9,411 nt of DNA, taken from IMG/VR virus record IMGVR_UViG_3300023290_000120. One strand, written 5' to 3'. Made by a program: the position numbers and the translations under genes. Positions 1-9,411 of this stretch are shown piece after piece (position 1 is the first letter of the stretch; each line of letters starts with the position of its first letter). The stretch is from a virus. Taxonomy: Duplodnaviria; Heunggongvirae; Uroviricota; Caudoviricetes. Under the pieces are notes generated by a model. That model did no database searches and had not been told where the DNA came from. It saw only the letters and a list, made by a program, of their open reading frames with translations.

Positions 1-203
1 CGTCGGTGCGTAGCAACAGCCCGCAAGAAGAACGCTATGAGAAAAAAACGGCAAGTAACGGCAAATTCTATTTCAATCTGAAAGCCGCTAATCATCAAAT
101 TATCGGCTCCAGCCAGATGTACGCCACCGCGCAATCTCGTGAAACCGGAATTGCCTCCGTTAAAGCCAATGGCACAAGCCAGACGGTGAAAGACAATACG
201 TAA
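1..203 (+). CDS. yegP: YegP (DUF1508/UPF0339 family), C-terminal part; 5' end cut by window edge
   Basis: The frame is open from the window edge (codon phase from base 3) to TAA at 201-203. The translation ...SNSPQEERYEKKTASNGKFYFNLKAANHQIIGSSQMYATAQSRETGIASVKANGTSQTVKDNT matches the second DUF1508 repeat of E. coli YegP as I remember it. The ORF-track start at 6 is an internal GTG, not the true start. Its position just upstream of yegQ fits E. coli gene order. Confidence 0.8.
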   Translation, partial: SVRSNSPQEERYEKKTASNGKFYFNLKAANHQIIGSSQMYATAQSRETGIASVKANGTSQTVKDNT

Positions 204-210
204 TTACGAT

Positions 211-244
211 GCCGGGCGTGGGTTGTTGGCGTCCGGCTTTATAT
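211..244 (+). terminator. Probable intrinsic terminator of yegP
   Basis: Stem 211-218 gccgggcg pairs with 230-237 cgtccggc (8 bp, one G.U), with an 11-nt loop, followed by tttatat at 238-244. It begins 8 nt after the yegP stop. Confidence 0.5.
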
Positions 245-355
245 CCAAATAACGCTTAGTTATTAATAATTAAGAGTAACCGCCGCCATTAAAATAGTGG
301 GCACTGACGAGCACTCGTTGTGCTTTCTTTGTTTACCATCCCATACTTATCCTCC

Positions 356-367
356 TGAACATGTTCA
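356..367. promoter_or_regulatory. Perfect 12-bp palindrome TGAACATGTTCA upstream of the antitoxin gene; candidate operator
   Basis: Read directly: tgaacatgttca is its own reverse complement. It lies about 90 bp upstream of the antitoxin ATG in an AT-rich stretch. RHH antitoxins typically autoregulate through inverted repeats. No clear sigma70 -35/-10 pair could be assigned. Confidence 0.3.
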
Positions 368-456
368 TGTGCCAAAATATCTTCTAATACTTTCGTGACG
401 CTATCCGGTTTATGACATACACTGATGTAAGATTTTTACTTACAGGCGGGCGTAAA

Positions 457-708
457 ATGGCCAGAACGATGACGGTTGATCTCGGCGATGAGTTGCGTGA
501 ATTTATCGAGTCCTTAATTGAATCCGGCGACTATCGCACCCAAAGCGAAGTGATCCGTGAGTCACTGCGATTACTTCGAGAAAAGCAAGCAGAGTCTCGC
601 CTGCAAGCGTTACGTGACATGCTCGCAGAAGGGTTGAGTAGTGGTGAAGCTCAGCCGTGGGAAAAGGACGCGTTCTTACGGAAGGTGAAAGCAGGGATAA
701 GGAAATAA
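457..708 (+). CDS. ParD-family (ribbon-helix-helix, CopG/Arc-like) type II antitoxin, 83 aa
   Basis: Translation MARTMTVDLGDELREFIESLIESGDYRTQSEVIRESLRLLREKQAESRLQALRDM... has the N-terminal RHH pattern and size of ParD/COG3609 antitoxins. ATG at 457-459 has a GGCGGG purine-rich patch upstream. The stop TAA at 706-708 lies 1 nt before the toxin start. The track ORF begins at 412, but that 15-codon extension is not typical for the family. Confidence 0.8.
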   Translation: MARTMTVDLGDELREFIESLIESGDYRTQSEVIRESLRLLREKQAESRLQALRDMLAEGLSSGEAQPWEKDAFLRKVKAGIRK

Positions 709-709
709 T

Positions 710-1006
710 GTGCGTATTATTAAACTCATGCCAAAAGCCAATGAGGATTTAGAAGGCATCTGGTATTACAGCTATCACCATTTCGGCGAACCACAAGCCG
801 ACAGATATGTGGAACATCTTTCAGACGTTCTCCAGATTCTGAGTAACAATAATATAGGTACGCCCAGACCTGAATTAGGCGAAGGTATTTTTGTTCTTCC
901 TTTTGAACGCCACGTCATTTATTTCCTGCAATCACCAGGGGAAATTATCGTCATTCGTATCCTTAACCAAAACCAGGACGCCACCAGACATTTACACTGG
1001 AGCTAA
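710..1006 (+). CDS. ParE/RelE-family type II toxin, 98 aa
   Basis: GTG start at 710-712 is preceded by AAGGAA at 699-704. The N-terminal pattern MRIIKLMPKANEDLEGIWYY matches the ParE signature (hydrophobic strand, then A..DL..I..Y). The C-terminal HVIYFLQSPGEIIVIRILNQNQD matches the conserved ParE/RelE beta-sheet core. Size and antitoxin-first order are canonical. An alternative ATG start at 728 would remove the first beta-strand. Confidence 0.8.
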   Translation: MRIIKLMPKANEDLEGIWYYSYHHFGEPQADRYVEHLSDVLQILSNNNIGTPRPELGEGIFVLPFERHVIYFLQSPGEIIVIRILNQNQDATRHLHWS

Positions 1007-1058
1007 ACCCGCCGATTGCGCTACAATGCCCGCCCTTAAAGTGGGGGCACTCCCCTAA

Positions 1059-1079
1059 CCGCTTCATCAGGTGAAGCGG
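1059..1079. other. Perfect stem-loop (8-bp stem ccgcttca/tgaagcgg, 5-nt loop) between the toxin gene and yegQ
   Basis: Read directly from the sequence. There is no downstream U-run, so it is not a classical intrinsic terminator. It could be an RNA-stability or processing element, or the edge of the TA insertion. Confidence 0.3.
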
Positions 1080-1108
1080 ATCTGACCTGTCATCAGAACG
1101 AGAGAATT

Positions 1109-2470
1109 ATGTTTAAACCGGAACTCCTTTCCCCGGCGGGAACGCTGAAAAATATGCGTTACGCTTTCGCTTATGGCGCAGATGCTGTTTATGCGGGCCA
1201 GCCGCGTTATTCCCTGCGTGTGCGCAACAACGAATTCAACCACGAAAATCTTCAGCTCGGCATCAATGAAGCCCACGCGCTGGGGAAAAAGTTTTATGTC
1301 GTGGTCAACATTGCACCGCACAACGCCAAGCTGAAAACCTTTATCCGTGACCTGAAACCGGTGGTGGAAATGGGGCCGGATGCGCTGATTATGTCCGATC
1401 CAGGGCTGATTATGCTGGTGCGTGAGCACTTCCCTGAAATGCCGATCCACCTTTCGGTGCAGGCTAACGCCGTGAACTGGGCGACGGTGAAATTCTGGCA
1501 GCAAATGGGCCTGACCCGCGTGATCCTCTCTCGCGAGCTGTCGCTGGAAGAGATTGAAGAGATCCGCAATCAGGTGCCGGATATGGAGATCGAGATCTTC
1601 GTTCACGGCGCGCTGTGCATGGCCTACTCCGGTCGCTGCCTGCTCTCTGGCTATATCAACAAGCGCGACCCGAACCAGGGCACCTGCACCAACGCCTGCC
1701 GCTGGGAGTACAATGTCCAGGAAGGGAAAGAAGATGACGTCGGCAACATCGTACACAAGTACGAGCCGATTCCGGTGCAAAATGTTGAGCCGACGCTGGG
1801 TATCGGCGCGCCAACCGACAAAGTGTTTATGATCGAAGAAGCCCAGCGTCCGGGCGAGTATATGACCGCGTTTGAAGATGAGCACGGCACTTACATCATG
1901 AACTCGAAAGATCTGCGCGCCATCGCCCATGTAGAACGCCTGACCAAAATGGGCGTGCATTCGCTGAAAATCGAAGGTCGTACCAAATCTTTCTACTATT
2001 GTGCACGCACCGCACAGGTTTACCGCAAAGCTATCGATGACGCCGCTGCGGGAAAACCGTTCGATACCAGCCTGCTGGAAACTCTGGAAGGTCTGGCGCA
2101 TCGTGGCTATACCGAAGGTTTCCTGCGTCGTCATACTCACGACGATTATCAGAACTACGAATACGGTTATTCAGTTTCTGACCGCCAGCAGTTTGTTGGT
2201 GAGTTTACCGGTGAGCGCAAGGGGGACCTCGCGGCGGTAGCGGTGAAAAATAAATTCTCCGTTGGCGACAGCCTTGAGCTGATGACGCCGCAAGGCAACA
2301 TTAACTTTACCCTTGAGCATATGGAAAACGCCAAAGGTGAAGCGATGCCGGTCGCACCAGGCGATGGTTATACTGTGTGGCTCCCGGTGCCGCAGGATCT
2401 TGAGCTAAATTACGCGCTGCTGATGCGTAATTTCTCCGGGGAAACCACGCGTAACCCCCACGGTAAGTGA
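1109..2470 (+). CDS. yegQ: Peptidase U32-family protein YegQ (TrhP, tRNA U34 hydroxylation)
   Basis: Uninterrupted 453-aa ORF with ATG at 1109 and GAGAG upstream. The protein, with its conserved Cys-rich block CTNACRWEY and MFKPELLSPAGTLKNMRYAF start, matches E. coli YegQ as I recall it. The 357-aa ORF on the opposite strand is a shadow frame. Confidence 0.95.
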   Translation: MFKPELLSPAGTLKNMRYAFAYGADAVYAGQPRYSLRVRNNEFNHENLQLGINEAHALGKKFYVVVNIAPHNAKLKTFIRDLKPVVEMGPDALIMSDPGLIMLVREHFPEMPIHLSVQANAVNWATVKFWQQMGLTRVILSRELSLEEIEEIRNQVPDMEIEIFVHGALCMAYSGRCLLSGYINKRDPNQGTCTNACRWEYNVQEGKEDDVGNIVHKYEPIPVQNVEPTLGIGAPTDKVFMIEEAQRPGEYMTAFEDEHGTYIMNSKDLRAIAHVERLTKMGVHSLKIEGRTKSFYYCARTAQVYRKAIDDAAAGKPFDTSLLETLEGLAHRGYTEGFLRRHTHDDYQNYEYGYSVSDRQQFVGEFTGERKGDLAAVAVKNKFSVGDSLELMTPQGNINFTLEHMENAKGEAMPVAPGDGYTVWLPVPQDLELNYALLMRNFSGETTRNPHGK

Positions 2471-2501
2471 TTAATTTCGATTATTTTTCCCGGATGGAAA
2501 A

Positions 2502-2547
2502 TTCTTAGAAACCGATCACATACAGCTGCATTTATTAAGGTTATCAT
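2502..2547 (+). promoter_or_regulatory. cyaR promoter region: putative CRP site (about 2502-2523, TCACA half-site at 2516-2520) and -10-like TATCAT (2542-2547)
   Basis: TATCAT ends 7 nt before the inferred CyaR 5' end. The TCACA half-site puts a CRP site centre near -42, consistent with the known class II CRP dependence of cyaR. The left half-site is degenerate (ttaga), so exact boundaries are uncertain. Confidence 0.4.
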
Positions 2548-2606
2548 CCGTTTCGCTGAAAAACATAACCCATAAAATGCTAGCTGTACCAGGAACCACC
2601 TCCTTA

Positions 2607-2641
2607 GCCTGTGTAATCTCCCTTACACGGGCTTATTTTTT
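2607..2641 (+). terminator. CyaR intrinsic terminator
   Basis: Stem 2607-2616 gcctgtgtaa pairs with 2623-2632 ttacacgggc (10 bp, one G.U), loop tctccc, followed by ttatttttt at 2633-2641. Confidence 0.75.
2615..2641. other. P2-type attachment-site core (27 bp) at the prophage/host junction, inside the CyaR terminator
   Basis: aatctcccttacacgggcttatttttt is the reverse complement of AAAAAATAAGCCCGTGTAAGGGAGATT, which I recall as the P2 att core. It lies about 100 bp from the ogr stop, where P2 places attP relative to ogr. Confidence 0.75.
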
Positions 2642-2682
2642 ACGCGTAATACAATGAAATAAAAGGATTTATTTCTGGTCAC

Positions 2683-2700
2683 GTCCACACATTGACCACA
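2683..2700 (-). promoter_or_regulatory. Two direct repeats (- strand TGTGGTCA ... TGTGGACG, 11 bp apart) in the att arm; candidate integrase arm-type sites
   Basis: Seen on the + strand as gtccaca (2683-2689) and gaccaca (2694-2700), one helical turn apart, between the att core and ogr. I recall the P2 Int arm-site consensus as TGTGGACA-like, but I am not certain of that. Confidence 0.25.
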
Positions 2701-2703
2701 TCG

Positions 2704-2731
2704 ACAAAAAAGCCCCTCGACTGAGGGGCTT
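2704..2731 (-). terminator. Intrinsic terminator downstream of ogr
   Basis: Perfect hairpin gcccctc / gact / gaggggc (2712-2729, extendable to 9 bp), followed on the - strand by a U-run (+ strand aaaaaa at 2706-2711). It starts about 12 nt after the ogr stop. Confidence 0.7.
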
Positions 2732-2742
2732 CCTGTTTGTAA

Positions 2743-2961
2743 TTACATCCACATAATTTGCTGCCCTGACGGCAACGGGTGCGGTCTTACGGCGTGGACT
2801 TCTCCCGGCTTCACGATGTATCGCTGTACCGACTCATAAGTGATGAACGTGGCGCTGCAATTCACGTTCTGGCACTGGTGATAACGCTCTTTTGTCGTGT
2901 CAGTGATATAGCGACTTGTACGCGCATGTGCGGCATGCTGGCATAAAGGACAATGAAACAT
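2743..2961 (-). CDS. ogr: Ogr, zinc-finger activator of P2 late transcription, 72 aa
   Basis: Translation MFHCPLCQHAAHARTSRYITDTTKERYHQCQNVNCSATFITYESVQRYIVKPGEVHAVRPHPLPSGQQIMWM has the Cys-X2-Cys-X22-Cys-X4-Cys Ogr/Delta zinc-finger spacing. ATG at 2959-2961 (+ strand cat) has GAAGAGG upstream. The 93-aa track ORF adds 21 in-frame codons that are not part of Ogr. Confidence 0.9.
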   Translation of the reverse strand: MFHCPLCQHAAHARTSRYITDTTKERYHQCQNVNCSATFITYESVQRYIVKPGEVHAVRPHPLPSGQQIMWM

Positions 2962-3042
2962 CGCGAGCACCTCTTCCGGTTTTGTTGATGGTGCTATTTT
3001 AGTCAATTTATCCTTATAAAACAAACAGATAAAATAAAGACA
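2962..3042 (-). promoter_or_regulatory. ogr upstream region with a -35-like TTGACT (+ coordinates 3001-3006)
   Basis: TTGACT is read directly on the - strand. No convincing -10 sits at 16-18 bp spacing, so the promoter assignment is tentative. Confidence 0.25.
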
Positions 3043-4206
3043 TCACTCATCATCTTCTGTTTCGTACTCCACATCAGAAAGCCTGACCTCAAGCTCCAAG
3101 GACGTCGTGAAGCCGCTATTATTCAGAAAATGTGTCACCTTAGTGATTGTCCAGTCCTGCTCGTCTATGACGCGCTTAAAGCCTGACACTTTAACCGGTG
3201 TTTCCGTGTAAATATCTGCCCGACCGGTAGCCAGGCTGATGGAGAACTCCGCAACGCCCCGTTGCAGTTTGTCCCACTTCGCCTGAGCGGCGCGCATGGC
3301 CTGCGCTTTCGTGGCATATACCGTGGTCAGGGCAAAAACGTTGTCAGCCTCACCGGCCATGTATTCACCTTCACGCGCTTCCGGTACTTTAGGCGCTTTC
3401 TTCTGCCTGACCGGTTTCGCTTTCGGGTGCTCCAGTGCGCGCAGGTGTTTCTCTTTCTTTTTGCGTTTCAGTTTTACCTTCTGCTTTTGCGGCTTCGGGT
3501 CTTTGGTGTGTAACCACTTTGCCGTTACGCCGGTATAGGCTCCACGATCAGCAATCGCAAAATGATGACGGTCACCGTCGCTGCGGGTGATGGTAATCTG
3601 CGGGATTTTTTTACCGCTGGCAGTCACCCCCTGCCCCGCTTTGAGAAACAGCAGTTTTCCCATTTTTACCGACACCTCACCGCCGTTGCGTTCAGCAAGA
3701 CGGGTCAGGAATTTCGCATCAGACTCCTGCGACTGGTCGATGTGCGGGATTTTAATTCCGGCCAGTGACGGAGCAACACGGGCTTCCAGCCTGTTACGGG
3801 AGGCTATCGCCTCAACAATCGCACCGAGCGTGGTGTCATGCCAGGAGCCTTCCCGGCGGGAATTGAGCGTCCCGCGAAAATCTGCACTCCGGGCGCGGAT
3901 GGTGACCACATCCGGCGCGCCCCGGTGTTCAACCTCATCAACGGTAAATTTCCCTTTGCATACCAGGGCAAAACCTTTCCAGCCGATATACACCGTCAGG
4001 ACAGCGCCACGAACCGGCAGCCCGACCTGCCCGTCGGCATCGTTCAGTTCAATATCAAGCTGGTCAGCCTCAAAGCCCCGGTTATCCGTCAGGGTCATGC
4101 TCATCAGACGGTCGCTGATATTGCCGGTAATATCCCTGCTGTCGAGCATCAGCATGTAATCCGGCGTCAGCGTACTGCCTGCATCAAATGTCAGCGCATC
4201 CAGCAT
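3043..4206 (-). CDS. D: P2 gpD-like tail protein (late control gene D family), 387 aa
   Basis: 387-aa ORF in the P2 position between U and ogr. Its ATG overlaps the U stop as TAATG. It contains an internal Lys/Pro-rich basic linker. Confidence 0.9.
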   Translation of the reverse strand: MLDALTFDAGSTLTPDYMLMLDSRDITGNISDRLMSMTLTDNRGFEADQLDIELNDADGQVGLPVRGAVLTVYIGWKGFALVCKGKFTVDEVEHRGAPDVVTIRARSADFRGTLNSRREGSWHDTTLGAIVEAIASRNRLEARVAPSLAGIKIPHIDQSQESDAKFLTRLAERNGGEVSVKMGKLLFLKAGQGVTASGKKIPQITITRSDGDRHHFAIADRGAYTGVTAKWLHTKDPKPQKQKVKLKRKKKEKHLRALEHPKAKPVRQKKAPKVPEAREGEYMAGEADNVFALTTVYATKAQAMRAAQAKWDKLQRGVAEFSISLATGRADIYTETPVKVSGFKRVIDEQDWTITKVTHFLNNSGFTTSLELEVRLSDVEYETEDDE

Positions 4207-4685
4207 TATCCCGCCCCCGTCATACCCGTGAATTTAGTCGCCATACTGCCAGCCTTACCGATGAGCGATTCCGCCTGTTTACCGATATCGCCATAAAGCG
4301 CGGCCAGTGATTCATCCACGCGGGTGAGTGACAGCGTAAAATCAATTTTCCGGGGTGTGCCGTCTGCAAAGAAAATACTCCCTGTTTCACTCACCCTGCT
4401 GATGACATACATGCCGTAAATCATGCCGGTGCCATCCAGCAACGGCCACGCCCGGCCTTCCTCTGCCATCAGTCTGAGCGTGGTCATCGTCAGCTTTCCG
4501 CCGGTCAGTTCAGGATAAAGCACACCGGCAAGCGTAATGTTTTCCTCACCCACACCGAGAAACTGGTAGGCATCCCGTTTACCGATACGGGAATTTGACG
4601 GCCAGCGATAATCTGATTCACGCTGCATGGTCTGGTGTGGCAGCGTCTGGCGCATAAAAACAAACATACCTAACGCGAGCATCAT
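4206..4685 (-). CDS. U: P2 gpU-like tail protein, 159 aa
   Basis: 159-aa ORF in the P2 position. AGGAGG lies 7 nt upstream of the ATG, and the stop overlaps the D start. Confidence 0.9.
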   Translation of the reverse strand: MMLALGMFVFMRQTLPHQTMQRESDYRWPSNSRIGKRDAYQFLGVGEENITLAGVLYPELTGGKLTMTTLRLMAEEGRAWPLLDGTGMIYGMYVISRVSETGSIFFADGTPRKIDFTLSLTRVDESLAALYGDIGKQAESLIGKAGSMATKFTGMTGAG

Positions 4686-4699
4686 TTTTCGTCACCTCC

Positions 4700-7147
4700 T
4701 TAACCGTCATGCATCATGCTGGCACGGGCGCGCGCACGTTTATCCCGCTCGTATTTTTCGAGTGCATCCTGTAACTGGCGGTCGAGCTGTGTCCCCGGCG
4801 CAGTACCGCCCGTCAGGTTGATGTGATATTCGTTTTTACTCTGGTCCACATAAGAGCGGCCAGCCGGTGCCGTGACCGGCTGATAAGCCTGATAACCTGC
4901 ATAAGAGCTGGCCGCCGGAATATAACCACCGGTGCCATACGTGGCGGCATGAGTTCTGGCGGCGGTCTGGTCAAGCGTGCCTGACTCTTTGTTGATAACG
5001 CCGAGTTTTTCCAGTACCCAGTCAATACCGCCGCGCAGTTTGTTGAACGCATTAAGCGGCAGCATCAGCGCGTCAGCCAGTGCCTGCCCGAACATGACGC
5101 CAGTATCACGGCAACGGTTCAGGGTGTCCTGGGTGGCTTTGACCGGGGCAATCAGGTTTTTAAACCACTGCCACGCGGCCTGTAACTTTTCACCCAGCCA
5201 GTCAAACACCGGCTTAAGTGGCGTGAACAGTTCCCCCACCGGCGCAAATGCCGCTTTCAGCCCTTCAACCACACCGCCGAAGAATGCGCTGACAGGCTCC
5301 CAGTATTTACGGATAAGCAACGCCCCGGCGACAATTGCGGCCACCACGGCCACAACCGGCCAGCTAATCGCCCCGATGGCGGTCATAACAGCACTGCCAA
5401 CCGTCATGAAGACTGCCCCCATTGCGCCTGCTGCCGCGATGATGGCATTGATGCCGGTGATAACCGGCCAGGCTACGAGGCCAATGGCACCGATGATGCC
5501 AATCAGCGCCAGCGCGCCACCGACAATGAGGCCGATGGTTGACGCCAGTGATTTGTTTTTCTGGATCCAGCCGTCGAGTTTTAACACATACTTTGTGGCC
5601 GTCTGCGTGAGCTTACGCAGTGCGCCTTCCTGCTGGTCAAACAGGTCTGTCCCCACCGCCTCATAAGCGGACTGAAACTCCTTAAAGTCACCGCCGAGGT
5701 TGTCCTGCATGATATTTACCAGCTCGGCAGTCTTCCCGTCTGAGGCTTTAAACGCAGCGGTCAGTTTGTCCAGCTTTCCGGTTGAGGCGGCAGTCATCAG
5801 CACGGCGGCGGCTGAGCTGGCCTCCTCCCCGAAAATAGTTTTCATGTATTCAGCCTGCTGGGCAGTACCGAGCCGGTTTTTCTCAAAACTGGCCTGCATT
5901 TCTTTCAGAATGGTAAATATTGGCCGGGTGTTTCCCTTGCTGTCTGAGGTTTTCACTCCAAGCTCTTTGAGTGCATCCCATGCTTTTCCCGTCGGTGCCT
6001 GCAGGCGGCTTAACACGGCACGGCTTCCCGTCCCCGCCATTGAGCCTGTGATTTTTGCATCATGCAGCGCCCCGACCATTGCGGCGGTTTCTTCAATGCT
6101 GACACCGGCATTTTTTGCCACAGGTGCGGCATAGGTCAGCGCATCGCTCATACCGTCAAAATCGGCGGCGGTTTTGTTCATCGTCATGGAGAGAACATCC
6201 CCGATATGAGCAACCTTATCGTTTGAAAGCTGAAAGGCAGATTTCATCCCCATCAGCAGGGCGGCGTTTTCTTCCATCGTGCGACGGTTCGCCAGCGCCA
6301 TATTCAGCGTGACCGGCGTTGCCGCCTGAATGGCATCAACATCCCCACCCGCTTTCGCGATGATTATCTGTGCACCGGCCGCATCATCCGCCGAGGCGGC
6401 GGTATTGTCGCCGAGCTGGCGCGCCTGCTTGCGTAGCGCGGCCATTTCGGCGGAGTCTTTTGCCACACCGAGCACGGCCTGTAATTCTGAGTTTTTCTGC
6501 GCAAATTCATAACCGGGCATCAGCAGCTTAACACCGGCCATCGTTCCCGCCGCCGCAATCCCCACACCGGCAGCGCCCACTGAGGCCATATTTCCGGCCA
6601 GCTCCTTTCCTGCCTGATAGCGCTGTTTTACTGCGTTAAGTTTTGCCTGTTGCGCACTGACACGCGCCAGCGCGTCACGCTGCCGGTTAAGCTGTGCGGT
6701 GGTTTCACTGATACGGTTTTTCAGTCCCTGCTCATCATGTGCAAGATTGCGGGTATTAATTCCCACAGCGGCCAGTTCCCGCTGCTGGCGTTTAACGGAA
6801 TCCGTCAGGCGGTTATATTTCGCCTGTAAGTCCTCCGCCGCTCGCTTTGCGGATTCCAGCACTTTCGCCTGAGCACGGGTCGGACGTTCGGTGTTTTTAA
6901 ACTGTGTGGCAAGGGCTTCGGCTTCCTGCCGTGCCTTTTCAAGTGCATGACCAGTCACGGCGAGCTGCGCACTGGTCTTGCGAAATCCCTCAATACGGGA
7001 TGCGTGACCGTTCAGCTCGCGCAGTGATTTTTGTGTTTCCCGGATATCCCCCGACAGCGACTTGCTCGCTGTGCGGATGGATTTAAACGGGCGGGATGCC
7101 TGGTCAACAGCCCTGAGCAATACCTGTAATTTTACATTGTTACTCAT
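4700..7147 (-). CDS. T: P2 gpT-like tail tape measure protein, 815 aa
   Basis: 815-aa ORF with a coiled-coil-like N-terminal half (Ala, Gln, Arg, Leu-rich heptads) and a long Gly/Ala/Ile-rich hydrophobic segment (IGLIVGGALALIGIIGAIG...), both typical of tape measure proteins. It sits between E/E' and U. Confidence 0.9.
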   Translation of the reverse strand: MSNNVKLQVLLRAVDQASRPFKSIRTASKSLSGDIRETQKSLRELNGHASRIEGFRKTSAQLAVTGHALEKARQEAEALATQFKNTERPTRAQAKVLESAKRAAEDLQAKYNRLTDSVKRQQRELAAVGINTRNLAHDEQGLKNRISETTAQLNRQRDALARVSAQQAKLNAVKQRYQAGKELAGNMASVGAAGVGIAAAGTMAGVKLLMPGYEFAQKNSELQAVLGVAKDSAEMAALRKQARQLGDNTAASADDAAGAQIIIAKAGGDVDAIQAATPVTLNMALANRRTMEENAALLMGMKSAFQLSNDKVAHIGDVLSMTMNKTAADFDGMSDALTYAAPVAKNAGVSIEETAAMVGALHDAKITGSMAGTGSRAVLSRLQAPTGKAWDALKELGVKTSDSKGNTRPIFTILKEMQASFEKNRLGTAQQAEYMKTIFGEEASSAAAVLMTAASTGKLDKLTAAFKASDGKTAELVNIMQDNLGGDFKEFQSAYEAVGTDLFDQQEGALRKLTQTATKYVLKLDGWIQKNKSLASTIGLIVGGALALIGIIGAIGLVAWPVITGINAIIAAAGAMGAVFMTVGSAVMTAIGAISWPVVAVVAAIVAGALLIRKYWEPVSAFFGGVVEGLKAAFAPVGELFTPLKPVFDWLGEKLQAAWQWFKNLIAPVKATQDTLNRCRDTGVMFGQALADALMLPLNAFNKLRGGIDWVLEKLGVINKESGTLDQTAARTHAATYGTGGYIPAASSYAGYQAYQPVTAPAGRSYVDQSKNEYHINLTGGTAPGTQLDRQLQDALEKYERDKRARARASMMHDG

Positions 7148-7567
7148 TCGTGTTTCCGCTTCGCCGGAGCGCCTTTTCGCGCCATGTGATGAGTTCAGTC
7201 AGGCTCATGGGATACAGTTCTGATGGCGGCCAGTGAAATATCACTGCCACATCCGCCATCAGGTCATCGACCGAGAGATTTTTCGGAAACGTCACTGCAC
7301 CGAGTTCGGCGACAAAAAACCGACCACCTTACCGGCCAGCGCCACAAGGTCAGGCAGTTCCAGCGCGGCGACTTCCTGCTCGGTCAGCATCGGTGCCGTC
7401 ATGCGCGGCAGCACTTTAATCAGTGCATCGACTTCGGAGTTCGCGACTGCAGCCAGACTGACACCGCGCAGCGTCCCGGCATTGGGTTTCATCAGCGTGA
7501 CCTGTTCGATAACCTGCTCACCACGTTTGACCGGATTGTCTAGGGTAATGACGTTTTCTTTGTTCAT
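7140..7567 (-). CDS. E+E': P2 E+E' tail assembly chaperone made by -1 programmed frameshift, 142 aa
   Basis: After a -1 slip at TTTTTTG the frame stays open for 57 codons (VAELGAVTFPKNLSVDDLMADVAVIFHWPPSELYPMSLTELITWREKALRRSGNTNE) and ends at TAA (7140-7142) inside the T start as ATGAGTAA. Total length is 85 + 57 = 142 aa. I translated this by hand from the reverse complement. Confidence 0.75.
7292..7567 (-). CDS. E: P2 gpE-like tail assembly chaperone (zero-frame product), 91 aa
   Basis: 91-aa ORF between FII and T ending ...GFLSPNSVQ, with stop TGA at 7292-7294. Confidence 0.85.
   Translation of the reverse strand: MNKENVITLDNPVKRGEQVIEQVTLMKPNAGTLRGVSLAAVANSEVDALIKVLPRMTAPMLTEQEVAALELPDLVALAGKVVGFLSPNSVQ
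7313..7319 (-). other. Slippery heptamer T TTT TTG (- strand) for the E to E+E' frameshift
   Basis: The + strand caaaaaa at 7313-7319 gives - strand TTTTTTG, placed 6 codons before the E stop. This is the T6G motif described for the P2 E/E' frameshift. Confidence 0.7.
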
Positions 7568-7595
7568 GGTTTTCTCACTTCTGAATCGGGGTTAA

Positions 7596-7616
7596 CCGGT
7601 CAGCCAGGCTGACCGG
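7596..7616 (-). other. Perfect 9-bp stem-loop (ccggtcagc / cag / gctgaccgg) between the FII stop and the E start
   Basis: Read directly from the sequence. It sits 8 nt after the FII stop and 28 nt before the E ATG, with no U-run. It could protect the 3' end of the upstream FI-FII message or reduce translation of E and T. Confidence 0.35.
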
Positions 7617-7623
7617 ATGAAAA

Positions 7624-8142
7624 TCACAGGCCGATATTGCGGCGGTGTTGCTCCAGCCGGTCGACGCCGTTCACCTTCTCAATCATGTTGATGGTGTCGA
7701 TTTCGACCAGCTCCTTACCGTCCATCGTCAGCCGGAAATAGGTGCAGACCACGGAGATTTTCGACTCGGTGTCTTCTCCCTGTTTGCCCTCGCCGGTGTC
7801 GATTTCTTTCTGACGTCCACGCATGACCACCTCGACGGCCACCGTTTCGCCGGTATCGTCGCGCTGGTAAGAGCCTGCAAAACGAATCGGTACGGCATCC
7901 ACACCGGTTGCGGCGTAAAGCTCCCAGATAACCGAATCCGGGAAGCCACCGAGCGACCACTCCATTGACAGCGCATCGTCATCAAGGCCGAGGTCTACCG
8001 GTGCGCTGCCGTTCATCCCCGCACCGCGATAGTTTTCGAGCTTACGGGTCAGTTTTGGCAGCGTGACGGACTTCGCGACGCCCTGATAGCTGTAGCCGTT
8101 CAGAAAGACGTTCATTAACTTGAGTTTGCGCGGCATTGCCAT
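7624..8142 (-). CDS. FII: P2 gpFII-like major tail tube protein, 172 aa
   Basis: 172-aa ORF immediately downstream of FI with a 12-nt spacer containing GGAG. Size and position match P2 FII. Confidence 0.9.
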   Translation of the reverse strand: MAMPRKLKLMNVFLNGYSYQGVAKSVTLPKLTRKLENYRGAGMNGSAPVDLGLDDDALSMEWSLGGFPDSVIWELYAATGVDAVPIRFAGSYQRDDTGETVAVEVVMRGRQKEIDTGEGKQGEDTESKISVVCTYFRLTMDGKELVEIDTINMIEKVNGVDRLEQHRRNIGL

Positions 8143-8154
8143 CGGTCAGGCTCC

Positions 8155-9345
8155 TTAATTGCTGTTAACCGAGGTGACCAGATTTGCCAGGTATTTATCA
8201 GTAATACGCTGGCGCAGGGTCAGGTTTTCAAGAGGAGGCACCGGGGTATAGTCGTAGTCGATATACAGTTTTCCGGCCTTGAGGGTTTCCGCATCGTTGG
8301 ATTCTTCGCTGAACCAGCAGGTCGCATCCACGATATAGCCGTTTGTTTTCAGCTCACGGAATTTGGCATTGATGCCGTCAACGATGTCGCGAATCAGCGT
8401 TGCGGTGATGGGCTTGTCCACCGCCCACATGTGCGCCTCAGCCATCGTGTCGGCCAGCACCTGCGCGGTGCGGGTGTAGTTTTCAAAGAGGAACAGCGGG
8501 TCATCAGAGCAGGTACGGTTACCCCAGAAGCGAAAACCGTCGCGGCGAATCAGCGTTGTGACGCCTGACTCGTTAAGCAGGTCAGCATCGGTGCCGGACT
8601 CCTGCAAATCCCAGAATACAGAGGCGCTGATGCCGGTAACACCGTTCACCCCGACATTGGACAGCGTTTTATGCCAGCCCTGCTCCTGGTCGATTTTAGC
8701 GCGCAGCCCCAGCGCACGGGCGGTGGCATACGCGGTGGCGGTGGTACTGGTGACCGTATCCCATGCGAGGAAATCCGGCCAGATGACCATCAGCTCACGC
8801 TGGCTGAAATTCTGACGGTAGGCTTTCACCTCGGAAATGGTTTTACAGCCCCATGCGCTGATATACCCGAAAGCGCGCAACTTCTGACAGACTGATGCCA
8901 GTGCAACAGCCACCTCTTTGGTGTCCAGTCCCGGCACGCCGAGAATACGCGGTTTAACACCGGTTACCGACTCCGCCGCCAGCAGGGCTTTCAGTCCGGT
9001 GTACTGACCGTTTTCGTCGGTGGTGCCGATGATATTGGAAACGGTCTGCGCGAGTTTCGTTTCCTCGTCGTCGCCGGTGCCGTCTTCCACACGCACGACA
9101 ACGGTGACCGGTTTTGACTGGTCGGCGATGGCCTGCAACGATGCCGCCAGCGTGCCTTTTTTACCGGCCTTTGCAATTGCGCTCTGCACATTGGTAATCA
9201 GCACAGGTTTATTGAGGGGGAAGGTTTCCGCATCCGCATCGCTGGCCGTGCAGACCATGCCGACAATGGCCGTGGATACGGTGGAAATGACGCGGGTGCC
9301 GTCGTTAATCTCCAGCACCTGCACGCCATGATGATAGTCACTCAT
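8155..9345 (-). CDS. FI: P2 gpFI-like contractile tail sheath protein, 396 aa
   Basis: 396-aa ORF, first gene of the FI-FII-E-T-U-D block. Size and position match the P2 sheath protein. Confidence 0.9.
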   Translation of the reverse strand: MSDYHHGVQVLEINDGTRVISTVSTAIVGMVCTASDADAETFPLNKPVLITNVQSAIAKAGKKGTLAASLQAIADQSKPVTVVVRVEDGTGDDEETKLAQTVSNIIGTTDENGQYTGLKALLAAESVTGVKPRILGVPGLDTKEVAVALASVCQKLRAFGYISAWGCKTISEVKAYRQNFSQRELMVIWPDFLAWDTVTSTTATAYATARALGLRAKIDQEQGWHKTLSNVGVNGVTGISASVFWDLQESGTDADLLNESGVTTLIRRDGFRFWGNRTCSDDPLFLFENYTRTAQVLADTMAEAHMWAVDKPITATLIRDIVDGINAKFRELKTNGYIVDATCWFSEESNDAETLKAGKLYIDYDYTPVPPLENLTLRQRITDKYLANLVTSVNSN

Positions 9346-9411
9346 CCGTTTAACTCTGAATCGCCACAGATAATCTAGACACTTCCGAGCCGCTGATAAT
9401 ATTGTTTTTCG
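9346..9411 (-). promoter_or_regulatory. FI leader and probable late promoter (P_F-like), truncated at the window edge
   Basis: On the - strand a TAGATT/GATTAT -10-like element lies about 25-30 nt upstream of the FI ATG. An Ogr-type TGT-N12-ACA site centred near -55 would straddle or lie beyond base 9411; only a possible ACA half (9402-9404) is visible. Confidence 0.3.

What the first reader, a model, noticed from the sequence alone, without database searches (positions are those of the whole stretch)
2555..2745. P2-type att core lies inside the CyaR sRNA terminator
The 27-bp core (2615-2641) covers the loop, the 3' half of the stem and the U-tract of the CyaR terminator, so the 3' end of the sRNA gene is supplied by the shared core sequence. 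Integration at the 3' end of a regulatory RNA gene while preserving it is classic for tyrosine integrases, here at an sRNA rather than a tRNA. I believe this is the locus that holds only the ogrK/yegZ remnant in K-12. If so, it is known biology, but the junction is seen intact here.
Basis: partly seen in the sequence, partly recalled or inferred. Interest (0 to 1): 0.4.

Follow-up and report, generated by a model that had tools for sequence, protein, structure and literature searches.

The report
P2 prophage junction inside cyaR terminator
This is the ordinary, already documented right-hand junction of a P2-type prophage sitting in its preferred E. coli site, where the 27-bp crossover sequence doubles as the end of the CyaR small-RNA gene and so leaves that gene intact.

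Summary
Rfam places CyaR at 2553-2638 (100.7 bits), equivalent to the K-12 cyaR annotation at 2555-2641. The 27-bp sequence at 2615-2641 matches the attP core annotated in phage P2 at 27 of 27 positions.

Homology to P2 begins exactly at 2615 and runs rightward through the P arm, the ogr terminator, ogr and the tail genes D to FI. To the left lies host yegQ/trhP and cyaR.

The core covers the last 2 nt of the 5' stem half, the loop, the 3' stem half and the U-tract. These are the last 27 nt of the 87-nt sRNA.

Three closely related lysogens carry an identical second core beside a P2-type int (335/337 to P2 Int in the one compared) about 31 kb away. Prophage-free strains (B, O157) carry a single core. 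K-12 has an identical junction followed only by ogrK and yegZ.

Published tables already list "cyaR RNA"/ryeE as a P2 insertion site, so this is known biology.

One side observation goes further. The "empty" E. coli site itself looks like a roughly 0.8-kb fossil P2-like prophage: core, then a P-arm relic, then yegR, then a decayed P'-arm plus core. P-arm relics also follow cyaR in Citrobacter, Enterobacter and Buttiauxella.

The parts
1109..2470 (+). Host gene yegQ/trhP (U32-family tRNA hydroxylase), the conserved upstream neighbour of cyaR.
   Evidence: Pfam Peptidase_U32 plus the U32 C-terminal domain. Annotated trhP/yegQ in matching genomes. From the yegQ start codon to the core there are 14 mismatches in 1506 nt against K-12.
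2471..2554 (+). yegQ-cyaR intergenic region holding the cyaR promoter (host DNA).
   Evidence: Window 2471-2641 is 100% identical to K-12. The best match is at least 99% identical in 5369 E. coli records. The promoter function itself rests on the literature and was not tested here.
2555..2641 (+). cyaR (ryeE) sRNA gene, 87 nt.
   Evidence: Rfam RF00112 at 100.7 bits, E 9.1e-20. The K-12 ncRNA annotation b4438 maps here. The fold has the seed hairpin and the terminator.
2606..2633 (+). CyaR intrinsic terminator hairpin: an 11-bp stem with one U.G pair and a 6-nt loop, followed by UAUUUUUU.
   Evidence: (-15.9 kcal/mol, z -4.9).
2615..2641 (.). 27-bp P2 att core (the crossover region). It equals the last 27 nt of cyaR.
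   Evidence: 27/27 to the annotated P2 attP core. Unique in the window. Phage homology starts at 2615. Present once in empty sites and twice in lysogens.
2640..2673 (.). Region homologous to the annotated P2 IHF-binding site in the P arm.
   Evidence: Positional homology to the P2 protein_bind feature 24324-24357, with 5 mismatches in 34. Identical to the K-12 remnant.
2677..2704 (.). Int arm-type binding site (P arm), containing GTCCACA and GACCACA repeats.
   Evidence: 28/28 identical to the P2 'Int, P arm' feature 24293-24320. The repeats fit the tgTGGaCa consensus of PMC3448106.
2709..2732 (-). Rho-independent terminator of ogr and the late F operon. The same hairpin also scores as a terminator on the + strand.
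   Evidence: 23/24 identical to the annotated P2 terminator. Folds at -19.9 kcal/mol on the - strand and -18.4 kcal/mol on the + strand. Listed on the + strand by the terminator scan.
2743..2961 (-). ogr, the late-gene activator (72 aa).
   Evidence: 72/72 identical to P2 Ogr. Pfam Ogr_Delta.
3043..9345 (-). P2-type tail genes: D (3043-4206), U (4206-4685), T tape measure (4700-7147), E (7292-7567), FII tube (7624-8142) and FI sheath (8155-9345). All are intact ORFs.
   Evidence: Pfam Phage_GPD, Phage_P2_GpU, PhageMin_Tail, Phage_TAC_7, Phage_tube and Phage_sheath. Same gene order as P2 and as prophages in 701 E. coli genomes.

Best explanation
Window 2555-2745 is the ogr-side junction of a P2-type (Peduovirus) prophage. 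In P2 nomenclature this is attR, arranged P arm - core - host. The prophage is integrated by a tyrosine integrase at the preferred E. coli attachment site, which lies at the 3' end of the sRNA gene cyaR.

Shown here. The 27-bp core is identical in attP and attB. It makes up the last 27 nt of cyaR: two stem bases, the loop, the 3' stem half and the U-tract. Recombination within it therefore rebuilds an unchanged cyaR next to yegQ and places a second core copy at the int end of the prophage.

Inferred. After integration, the distal part of the CyaR terminator is physically phage-derived DNA. The sRNA is expected to be made with the same sequence and 3' end. K-12 supports this: it carries an identical junction and is a strain in which CyaR and its terminator have been studied. 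The ogr/F-operon terminator 69-91 nt downstream probably shields cyaR from antisense late transcription. It may also act as a backstop for CyaR read-through.
For: - CyaR covariance-model hit at 2553-2638, 100.7 bits.
- Core 27/27 to the annotated P2 attP and unique in the window.
- Phage homology begins exactly at 2615 for P2 and its closest relatives. No similarity to attP lies left of it.
- The Int arm site is 28/28, the terminator 23/24 and Ogr 72/72 identical to P2.
- The five-sequence alignment of attB, the window junction, attP and both junctions of lysogen MB06102 shows the classical pattern of shared core and swapped flanks.
- Three related lysogens carry an exact second core beside int, followed by the yegR-side host flank. 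The MB06102 Int is 335/337 identical to P2 Int.
- K-12 is identical over window 2545-2738, then carries only ogrK and yegZ, ending in the right 18 nt of a second core.
- Terminator folds are the same in the lysogen and in the empty site.
- Literature: ryeE is a known phage target (PMC3603311). 'cyaR RNA' is listed as a P2 insertion site with ogr-D' in K-12 (PMC3032704).
Against: - Nothing contradicts the explanation.
- The int end and the second core of this particular prophage lie outside the window.
- Int activity, excision competence and CyaR expression were not measured.
- The IHF-site region differs from P2 at 5 of 34 positions. It is identical to the variant in K-12 and in many E. coli genomes.
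Confidence: 0.95

Rival explanations
1. The element is a cryptic remnant, like K-12's ogrK-yegZ (PR-X), or an otherwise defective prophage. It would not be an excisable prophage, and the junction would be a dead scar.
For: - Remnants at this site are common. 1273 genomes have the cyaR-core-P-arm junction, but only 701 hold at least 80% of the 9.4-kb window.
- The int end is not visible in the window.
- One related prophage carries an IS1 insertion.
Against: - The window extends 6.8 kb into the prophage with intact ogr, D, U, T, E, FII and FI ORFs.
- K-12's remnant diverges from the window after about 640 bp.
- The closest genomes carry complete 31-kb prophages with int, C, cox, replication, head, lysis and tail genes.
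Confidence: 0.1
2. Integration subtly changes CyaR biogenesis even though the gene sequence is preserved. The DNA immediately after the U-tract changes, which could alter termination efficiency, read-through products or the Hfq-binding tail.
For: - The base after the core is A in the lysogen and in K-12. Some empty sites have T, giving a 7-T run in B and O157. Others have A, giving a 6-T run in ST131 and ECMA0423.
- The CyaR terminator is leaky, with 41% read-through in a reporter (PMC9765468).
- In the lysogen, read-through would run into the P arm and meet the ogr terminator hairpin.
Against: - The hairpin and its predicted energy are identical.
- The 6-T form also exists in empty sites, so it falls within natural variation.
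- CyaR is functional in K-12, which has the lysogen-type junction.
Confidence: 0.15
3. The resemblance between the CyaR terminator and the P2 core is coincidental or convergent, and the prophage boundary lies elsewhere.
For: None beyond the general fact that terminators share hairpin-plus-T-run architecture.
Against: - 27/27 identity, with 0 matches expected by chance.
- Homology to P2 starts at exactly 2615, and host homology ends at 2641.
- Lysogens carry a duplicated core and empty sites a single core.
Confidence: 0.01

Closest known systems
Bacteriophage P2 attP / E. coli locI site-specific recombination system (P2 Int, IHF, Cox)
   Same: - Identical 27-bp core.
- Identical Int P-arm site.
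- The same order: core, IHF site, arm site, terminator, ogr, D.
- In the lysogen compared (MB06102) Int is 335/337 identical to P2 Int.
   Different: - The IHF-site region has 5 of 34 substitutions relative to the P2 reference.
- The tail-gene block is about 97-98% identical rather than identical.
- int lies outside the window.
- That this site is the classical 'locI' of E. coli C rests on my memory of Barreiro & Haggard-Ljungquist 1992. It was not checked here.
E. coli K-12 cryptic prophage PR-X (ogrK-yegZ remnant next to cyaR)
   Same: The junction sequence is identical from window 2545 to 2738. The core, P arm, terminator and ogr are the same.
   Different: K-12 keeps only about 640 bp: ogrK plus a fragment of D (yegZ). 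This is joined to the right 18 nt of the second core. The window continues through intact D, U, T, E, FII and FI.
Prophage Wphi2 of E. coli W and P2*B of E. coli B REL606, tabulated at insertion site 'cyaR RNA'
   Same: P2-type prophages at the same RNA-gene site (PMC3032704 Table 2).
   Different: These are different strains. Their sequences were not compared here.
Integration into the 3' ends of tRNA, tmRNA and other sRNA genes. Examples are phage 186 at tRNA-Ile, Fels-2 and SopEPhi at ssrA, and phages at ryeB/sdsR in Salmonella.
   Same: A tyrosine integrase is used. The core overlaps the 3' end of a structured RNA gene and restores it after integration (PMC3448106; PMC3603311; PMC3333887).
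   Different: - The target is an Hfq-dependent regulatory sRNA.
- The duplicated segment is a Rho-independent terminator, not a tRNA T-arm or acceptor stem.
- The P2 phylogeny paper describes P2-type integrases as integrating mostly 'between other genes' and does not mention cyaR.

Membership tests
P2-type prophage att junction (attR: P arm - core - host) | Core sequence identical or near-identical to the P2 attP core. | tested here: met
   27/27 to NC_001895 24356-24382.
P2-type prophage att junction (attR: P arm - core - host) | Phage homology on one side of the core only, and host homology on the other side only. | tested here: met
   Phage matches start at 2615. Host matches (yegQ-cyaR) end at 2641 in empty-site genomes.
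P2-type prophage att junction (attR: P arm - core - host) | Arm-type Int binding repeats and an IHF site beside the core. | tested here: met
   The Int P-arm site is 28/28 identical to the P2 annotation. The IHF region is present with 5/34 differences. Actual protein binding was not testable.
P2-type prophage att junction (attR: P arm - core - host) | A second core in direct orientation at the other prophage end, next to a tyrosine integrase gene. | tested here: inconclusive
   This end lies outside the 9.4-kb window. In three closely related lysogens the exact core is present beside int. The MB06102 Int is 335/337 identical to P2 Int.
P2-type prophage att junction (attR: P arm - core - host) | Unoccupied sites with a single core exist in the same species. 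| tested here: met
   BLR(DE3), O157:H7 and ST131 have yegQ-cyaR-yegR with no phage genes. About 4208 of 5426 genomes hold the empty-type junction.
P2-type prophage att junction (attR: P arm - core - host) | Int-, IHF- and Cox-dependent integration and excision. | not testable with these tools
   Needs recombination assays.
CyaR/RyeE sRNA (Rfam RF00112) | Covariance-model score above the gathering threshold. | tested here: met
   100.7 bits against 47, with the full model 1-85 matched.
CyaR/RyeE sRNA (Rfam RF00112) | Conserved position downstream of yegQ. | tested here: met
   yegQ is at 1109-2470 and cyaR at 2555-2641. tblastn found yegQ in 118 of the 120 species loci that contain the CyaR pattern.
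CyaR/RyeE sRNA (Rfam RF00112) | Intact Rho-independent terminator with a U tail. | tested here: met
   An 11-bp stem followed by UAUUUUUU, identical to K-12.
CyaR/RyeE sRNA (Rfam RF00112) | cAMP-CRP-dependent expression and Hfq-dependent regulation of targets such as ompX. | not testable with these tools
   The promoter region 2471-2554 is identical to K-12. Expression was not measured.

The most novel reading that the evidence does not exclude
The 'unoccupied' E. coli attachment site may itself be the attR of a roughly 0.8-kb fossil P2-like prophage.

The 801 bp between the cyaR core and the ancestral yegS upstream sequence has three features.
- It starts with a P-arm relic that includes an Int arm-type repeat.
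- It contains the E. coli-specific orphan gene yegR.
- It ends with a decayed P'-arm plus core.

Modern P2 phages would then re-use the one core copy that selection on the CyaR terminator has kept intact.

P-arm relics directly after cyaR in Citrobacter, Enterobacter and Buttiauxella suggest a wider pattern. cyaR may be an old, multi-genus docking site for P2-like phages, whose decay always spares the cyaR-proximal junction.
Probability: 0.6. Interest if true: 0.3.

Novelty: already known. Interest (0 to 1): 0.12.

Why it matters
As a finding it mainly confirms textbook behaviour. A tyrosine-integrase phage targets the 3' end of a structured RNA gene and carries a copy of that end, so the host gene survives.

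Its practical value is for annotation. PGAP does not annotate cyaR ('none' under the matches). The prophage boundary should be drawn inside the sRNA gene.

It also shows that the CyaR in K-12, a strain in which the sRNA and its terminator have been studied, is the lysogen-type allele.

The side observation that the empty site is a fossil junction would, if upheld, have two consequences. It would illustrate how selection on a host terminator preserves a phage attachment site over long periods. It would also suggest a prophage origin for yegR.

Tried and rejected
1. Free phages with host-variant cores. I looked for sequenced phages whose attP core matches the cyaR terminator variants of other genera, to test core-host co-variation. 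The phage collection returned only E. coli P2-group phages with the E. coli core, at 77.9-82% identity in the rows listed. Co-variation therefore could not be tested and I do not claim it.

2. Is yegR phage-borne? Only two 'phage' records contain it. One begins at the core and has yegR near its other end, and the other also carries the host yegQ gene, so both appear to include host flank. This gives no independent support.

3. tblastx of the DNA downstream of cyaR in other genera against a complete E. coli P2-type prophage. Only Citrobacter youngae has ogr and D. The other loci with P-arm sequences are short relics without a second core.

4. Primary papers. Wassarman 2001 and De Lay & Gottesman 2009 are not held in the library. 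The 'known' status therefore rests on secondary statements. My memory of Barreiro & Haggard-Ljungquist 1992 is marked as memory.

5. One literature search using 'locI'/'locII' matched the ordinary word 'loci' and was useless.

6. Chance resemblance of a terminator to the core was considered and rejected.

Full report
**Observation**

Rfam's covariance model for CyaR/RyeE (RF00112) matches window 2553-2638 on the + strand. The score is 100.7 bits against a gathering score of 47, and the whole model is covered. The K-12 ncRNA annotation for cyaR (b4438, 87 nt) maps to window 2555-2641.

The terminator predicted by the model, by single-sequence folding and by two simple scans has these parts:
- an 11-bp stem, 2606-2616 paired with 2623-2633, containing one U.G pair;
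- a 6-nt loop, 2617-2622;
- the tail UAUUUUUU, 2634-2641.

The 27-mer AATCTCCCTTACACGGGCTTATTTTTT occupies 2615-2641. It is unique in the window, and none are expected by chance. The core therefore covers the last two bases of the 5' stem half, the loop, the whole 3' stem half and the U-tract. These are the last 27 of CyaR's 87 nt.

**Is it the P2 core?**

The P2 reference record (NC_001895) annotates attP at 24356-24382. It is flanked on the ogr side by an IHF site, an Int 'P arm' site and the ogr/F-operon terminator. On the int side it is flanked by Cox sites and the Int 'P' arm' site.

The window core is 27/27 identical to that feature. A BLAST search of window 2400-3100 against 50,697 phage records shows that homology to P2 and its closest relatives starts at query base 216, which is window 2615. 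That is exactly the left edge of the core.

Identity to P2 to the right of the core:

| Feature | Window position | Identity to P2 |
|---|---|---|
| Int P-arm site | 2677-2704 | 28/28 |
| ogr/F-operon terminator | 2709-2732 | 23/24 |
| Ogr protein | 2743-2961 | 72/72 |
| IHF-site region | 2640-2673 | 29/34 (5 substitutions) |

The ORFs that follow are gpD, gpU, the tape measure, gpE, the tail tube and the tail sheath, by Pfam. Left of 2615 there is no similarity to attP. That DNA is host yegQ/trhP plus the cyaR promoter and body. It is 100% identical to K-12 over 2471-2641 and is present in 5422 of 5426 complete E. coli genomes.

By the arm names in the P2 record, the window junction read on the minus strand is P arm - core - host. 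That makes it attR.

*Test 1: the reference core.* It is identical, as shown above.

*Test 2: the far end.* It lies outside the window, so I examined the closest genomes.
- In strain MB06102 (98.4% identical over window 1-9356), a complete P2-type prophage lies between yegQ/trhP-cyaR and yegR.
- That prophage has exact cores 31,384 bp apart. The second core lies 79 bp from the end of an int gene, and its product is 335/337 identical to P2 Int.
- Strains S56 and 89-3156 show the same exact second core beside int, followed by the yegR-side host flank.

A five-sequence alignment shows the classical pattern of shared core with exchanged flanks. It includes empty attB from BLR(DE3), the window junction, P2 attP and both MB06102 junctions.

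**Empty sites and K-12**

BLR(DE3), an O157:H7 strain and an ST131 strain have yegQ-cyaR-yegR with no phage genes.

K-12 MG1655 has trhP, cyaR, the annotated 'cryptic prophage PR-X', ogrK, the yegZ pseudogene and yegR. Its sequence is identical to the window from 2545 to 2738. About 640 bp into the phage DNA, the D fragment is joined directly to TACACGGGCTTATTTTTT, the right 18 nt of a second core. The normal yegR-side flank follows.

It also follows that the CyaR in K-12, a strain in which the sRNA and its terminator have been studied, comes from a lysogen-type junction. This is indirect evidence that the junction supports normal CyaR production. For example, the K-12 CyaR terminator was assayed in PMC9765468, with 41% intrinsic read-through.

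**How common is it?**

Counts among 5426 complete E. coli genomes:

| Feature | Genomes |
|---|---|
| cyaR-core-P-arm junction | 1273 |
| At least 80% of the whole 9.4-kb window | 701 |
| Empty-type junction | about 4208 |

The empty-type count includes slight double counting of short remnants. K-12 laboratory strains probably inflate the junction count.

**Mechanism**

*Shown.* The core is identical in attP and attB. Any crossover within it regenerates cyaR unchanged and duplicates the core.

*Inferred from the established mechanism of heterobivalent tyrosine integrases.* P2 Int, bound to the arm sites and bent by IHF, exchanges strands within the core. After integration, the part of the CyaR terminator distal to the crossover is physically phage DNA.

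The only sequence change near CyaR is the base after the core. It is A in the lysogen. Empty sites have T in B and O157, giving a 7-T run, or A in ST131 and strain ECMA0423, giving a 6-T run. The predicted hairpin energies are identical.

The ogr/F-operon terminator at 2709-2732 folds well on both strands and scores as a + strand terminator. It probably keeps late phage transcription from running antisense through cyaR. It may also stop CyaR read-through. Both points are inference.

**Comparison with what is known**

- Bobay et al. state that ryeE in E. coli was 'previously known to be targeted by phages', citing Wassarman et al. 2001 (PMC3603311).
- The E. coli W genome paper tabulates 'cyaR RNA' as an insertion site holding Wphi2 (P2) in W, ogr-D' in K-12 and P2*B in REL606 (PMC3032704).
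- From memory, not checked here: Barreiro & Haggard-Ljungquist 1992 described the 27-nt locI core and the K-12 P2 remnant with part of D, ogr and attR.

The finding is therefore already known, and the window is one more instance of it. One small point of interest is that the P2 phylogeny paper describes P2-type integrases as integrating mostly 'between other genes' (PMC3448106). The best-known P2 site in fact lies inside an sRNA gene.

**Side observation, followed up**

A pattern scan for the CyaR seed plus terminator loop returned 120 species-level loci across the Enterobacterales. In most Enterobacteriaceae, yegS begins 75-145 nt after the CyaR terminator. In E. coli the gap is 875 nt.

In prophage-free E. 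coli, the ancestral yegS-upstream sequence (GACTTTCATCCTGTTCTGAC...) resumes 801 bp after the core. In Escherichia sp. E1V33 that sequence begins 7 nt after the core.

That 801-bp segment has three features.
- It begins with a stretch collinear with the P2 P arm. The local alignment score is 38, against 14.8 +/- 2.3 in 2000 shuffles, none of which reached it. The stretch includes the 15-mer CATTGACCACATCGA of the Int arm site.
- It contains yegR. Among the 120 loci, yegR was found only in E. coli.
- It ends with a stretch collinear with the P2 P'-side sequence plus a decayed core. The global score is 11, against -9.7 +/- 4.1 in 5000 shuffles, none of which reached it. This is the best-scoring position in the whole 8.2-kb locus apart from the true core.

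The simplest reading is that the 'empty' site is the attR of a fossil P2-like prophage. Its cyaR-proximal core has been kept intact because it is the CyaR terminator.

P-arm-like sequences also follow cyaR directly in these genomes:
- Citrobacter sp. Awk 4;
- 'Bacterium BS0013';
- a Buttiauxella MAG;
- Enterobacter sp. UNJFSC 003;
- Citrobacter youngae, which also has ogr and part of D.

No second core was found within the sequence available (1.4-6.8 kb downstream of cyaR). I could not find yegR in genuine phage genomes, nor free phages with the variant cores. The prophage origin of yegR and any core-host co-variation therefore remain untested.

**Verdict**

This is known biology with a low interest score. 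The fossil-junction reading of the empty site is a modest extra that I rate probable but unproven.

Noticed in passing
L004 4172-4972 (E. coli BLR(DE3), prophage-free site). The equivalent flank lies beyond the int end of lysogens: L003 9344-9403, L128 4408 onward.: The 'empty' E. coli attB is followed by an 801-bp, apparently E. coli-specific segment. It starts with a P2 P-arm relic that shares the Int arm-site 15-mer CATTGACCACATCGA. It contains yegR. It ends with a decayed P'-arm plus core, just before the ancestral yegS upstream sequence. It looks like a fossil P2-like prophage whose attR core is the present attachment site.
   Followed up: yes
L042 (Citrobacter sp. Awk 4), L062 (Bacterium BS0013), L091 (Buttiauxella MAG), L106 (Enterobacter sp.) and L118 (Citrobacter youngae), immediately 3' of cyaR.: P2-type P-arm sequences (GAAATAAA..., GTCCACA / GACCACA repeats, a terminator hairpin) directly follow the host-specific cyaR terminator in other genera. 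Most lack recognisable P2 genes, and no second core was found in the 1.4-6.8 kb available. C. youngae keeps ogr and part of D, with about 950 bp of extra DNA between the P arm and ogr.
   Followed up: partly
window 412-708 and 710-1006 (+).: A parD/parE type II toxin-antitoxin pair sits between yegP and yegQ (Pfam ParD_antitoxin and ParE_toxin). It is present in lysogen MB06102. It is absent from K-12, BLR(DE3), O157:H7 and ST131, where yegP and yegQ are about 146 bp apart.
   Followed up: partly
L006 4145-4171 (ST131 strain 2822).: The att core and CyaR terminator carry a G-to-A change (ACACGGGC to ACACAGGC). It converts the single U.G pair of the stem into U-A, shifting the predicted energy from -15.9 to -16.6 kcal/mol. 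It makes the core 26/27 to P2. Whether it lowers P2 integration was not examined.
   Followed up: no
window 2710-2731.: The ogr/F-operon terminator hairpin also scores as an intrinsic terminator on the + strand (tail CCTGTTTGTA). It lies 69 nt beyond the CyaR 3' end, so it could catch read-through from the leaky CyaR terminator.
   Followed up: partly
window 9357-9411.: Homology to the best-matching E. coli prophages stops at 9356, just upstream of the FI sheath gene start. The last 55 bases differ from those genomes, which carry an invertase-type recombinase and tail-fibre genes there. This is probably a mosaic boundary of the P2-like genome.
   Followed up: no
L042 1256-2365 and L062 391-1543 (minus strand, in cyaR-oriented coordinates).: The same two-gene cassette lies inside the P2-like relics next to cyaR in two different taxa. 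It encodes proteins of about 200-237 aa and about 142-149 aa, the larger containing '...GEYFEFRPRNPPLNSKP.VDDESGM...'. It may be phage cargo. No function was assigned.
   Followed up: no
L022, L119 and L120 (Enterobacter chinensis, E. asburiae, E. soli), immediately 3' of cyaR.: About 630 nt of shared non-P2-like sequence lies between the cyaR terminator and yegS. It gave no tblastx or tblastn match to P2 genes and was not identified.
   Followed up: no
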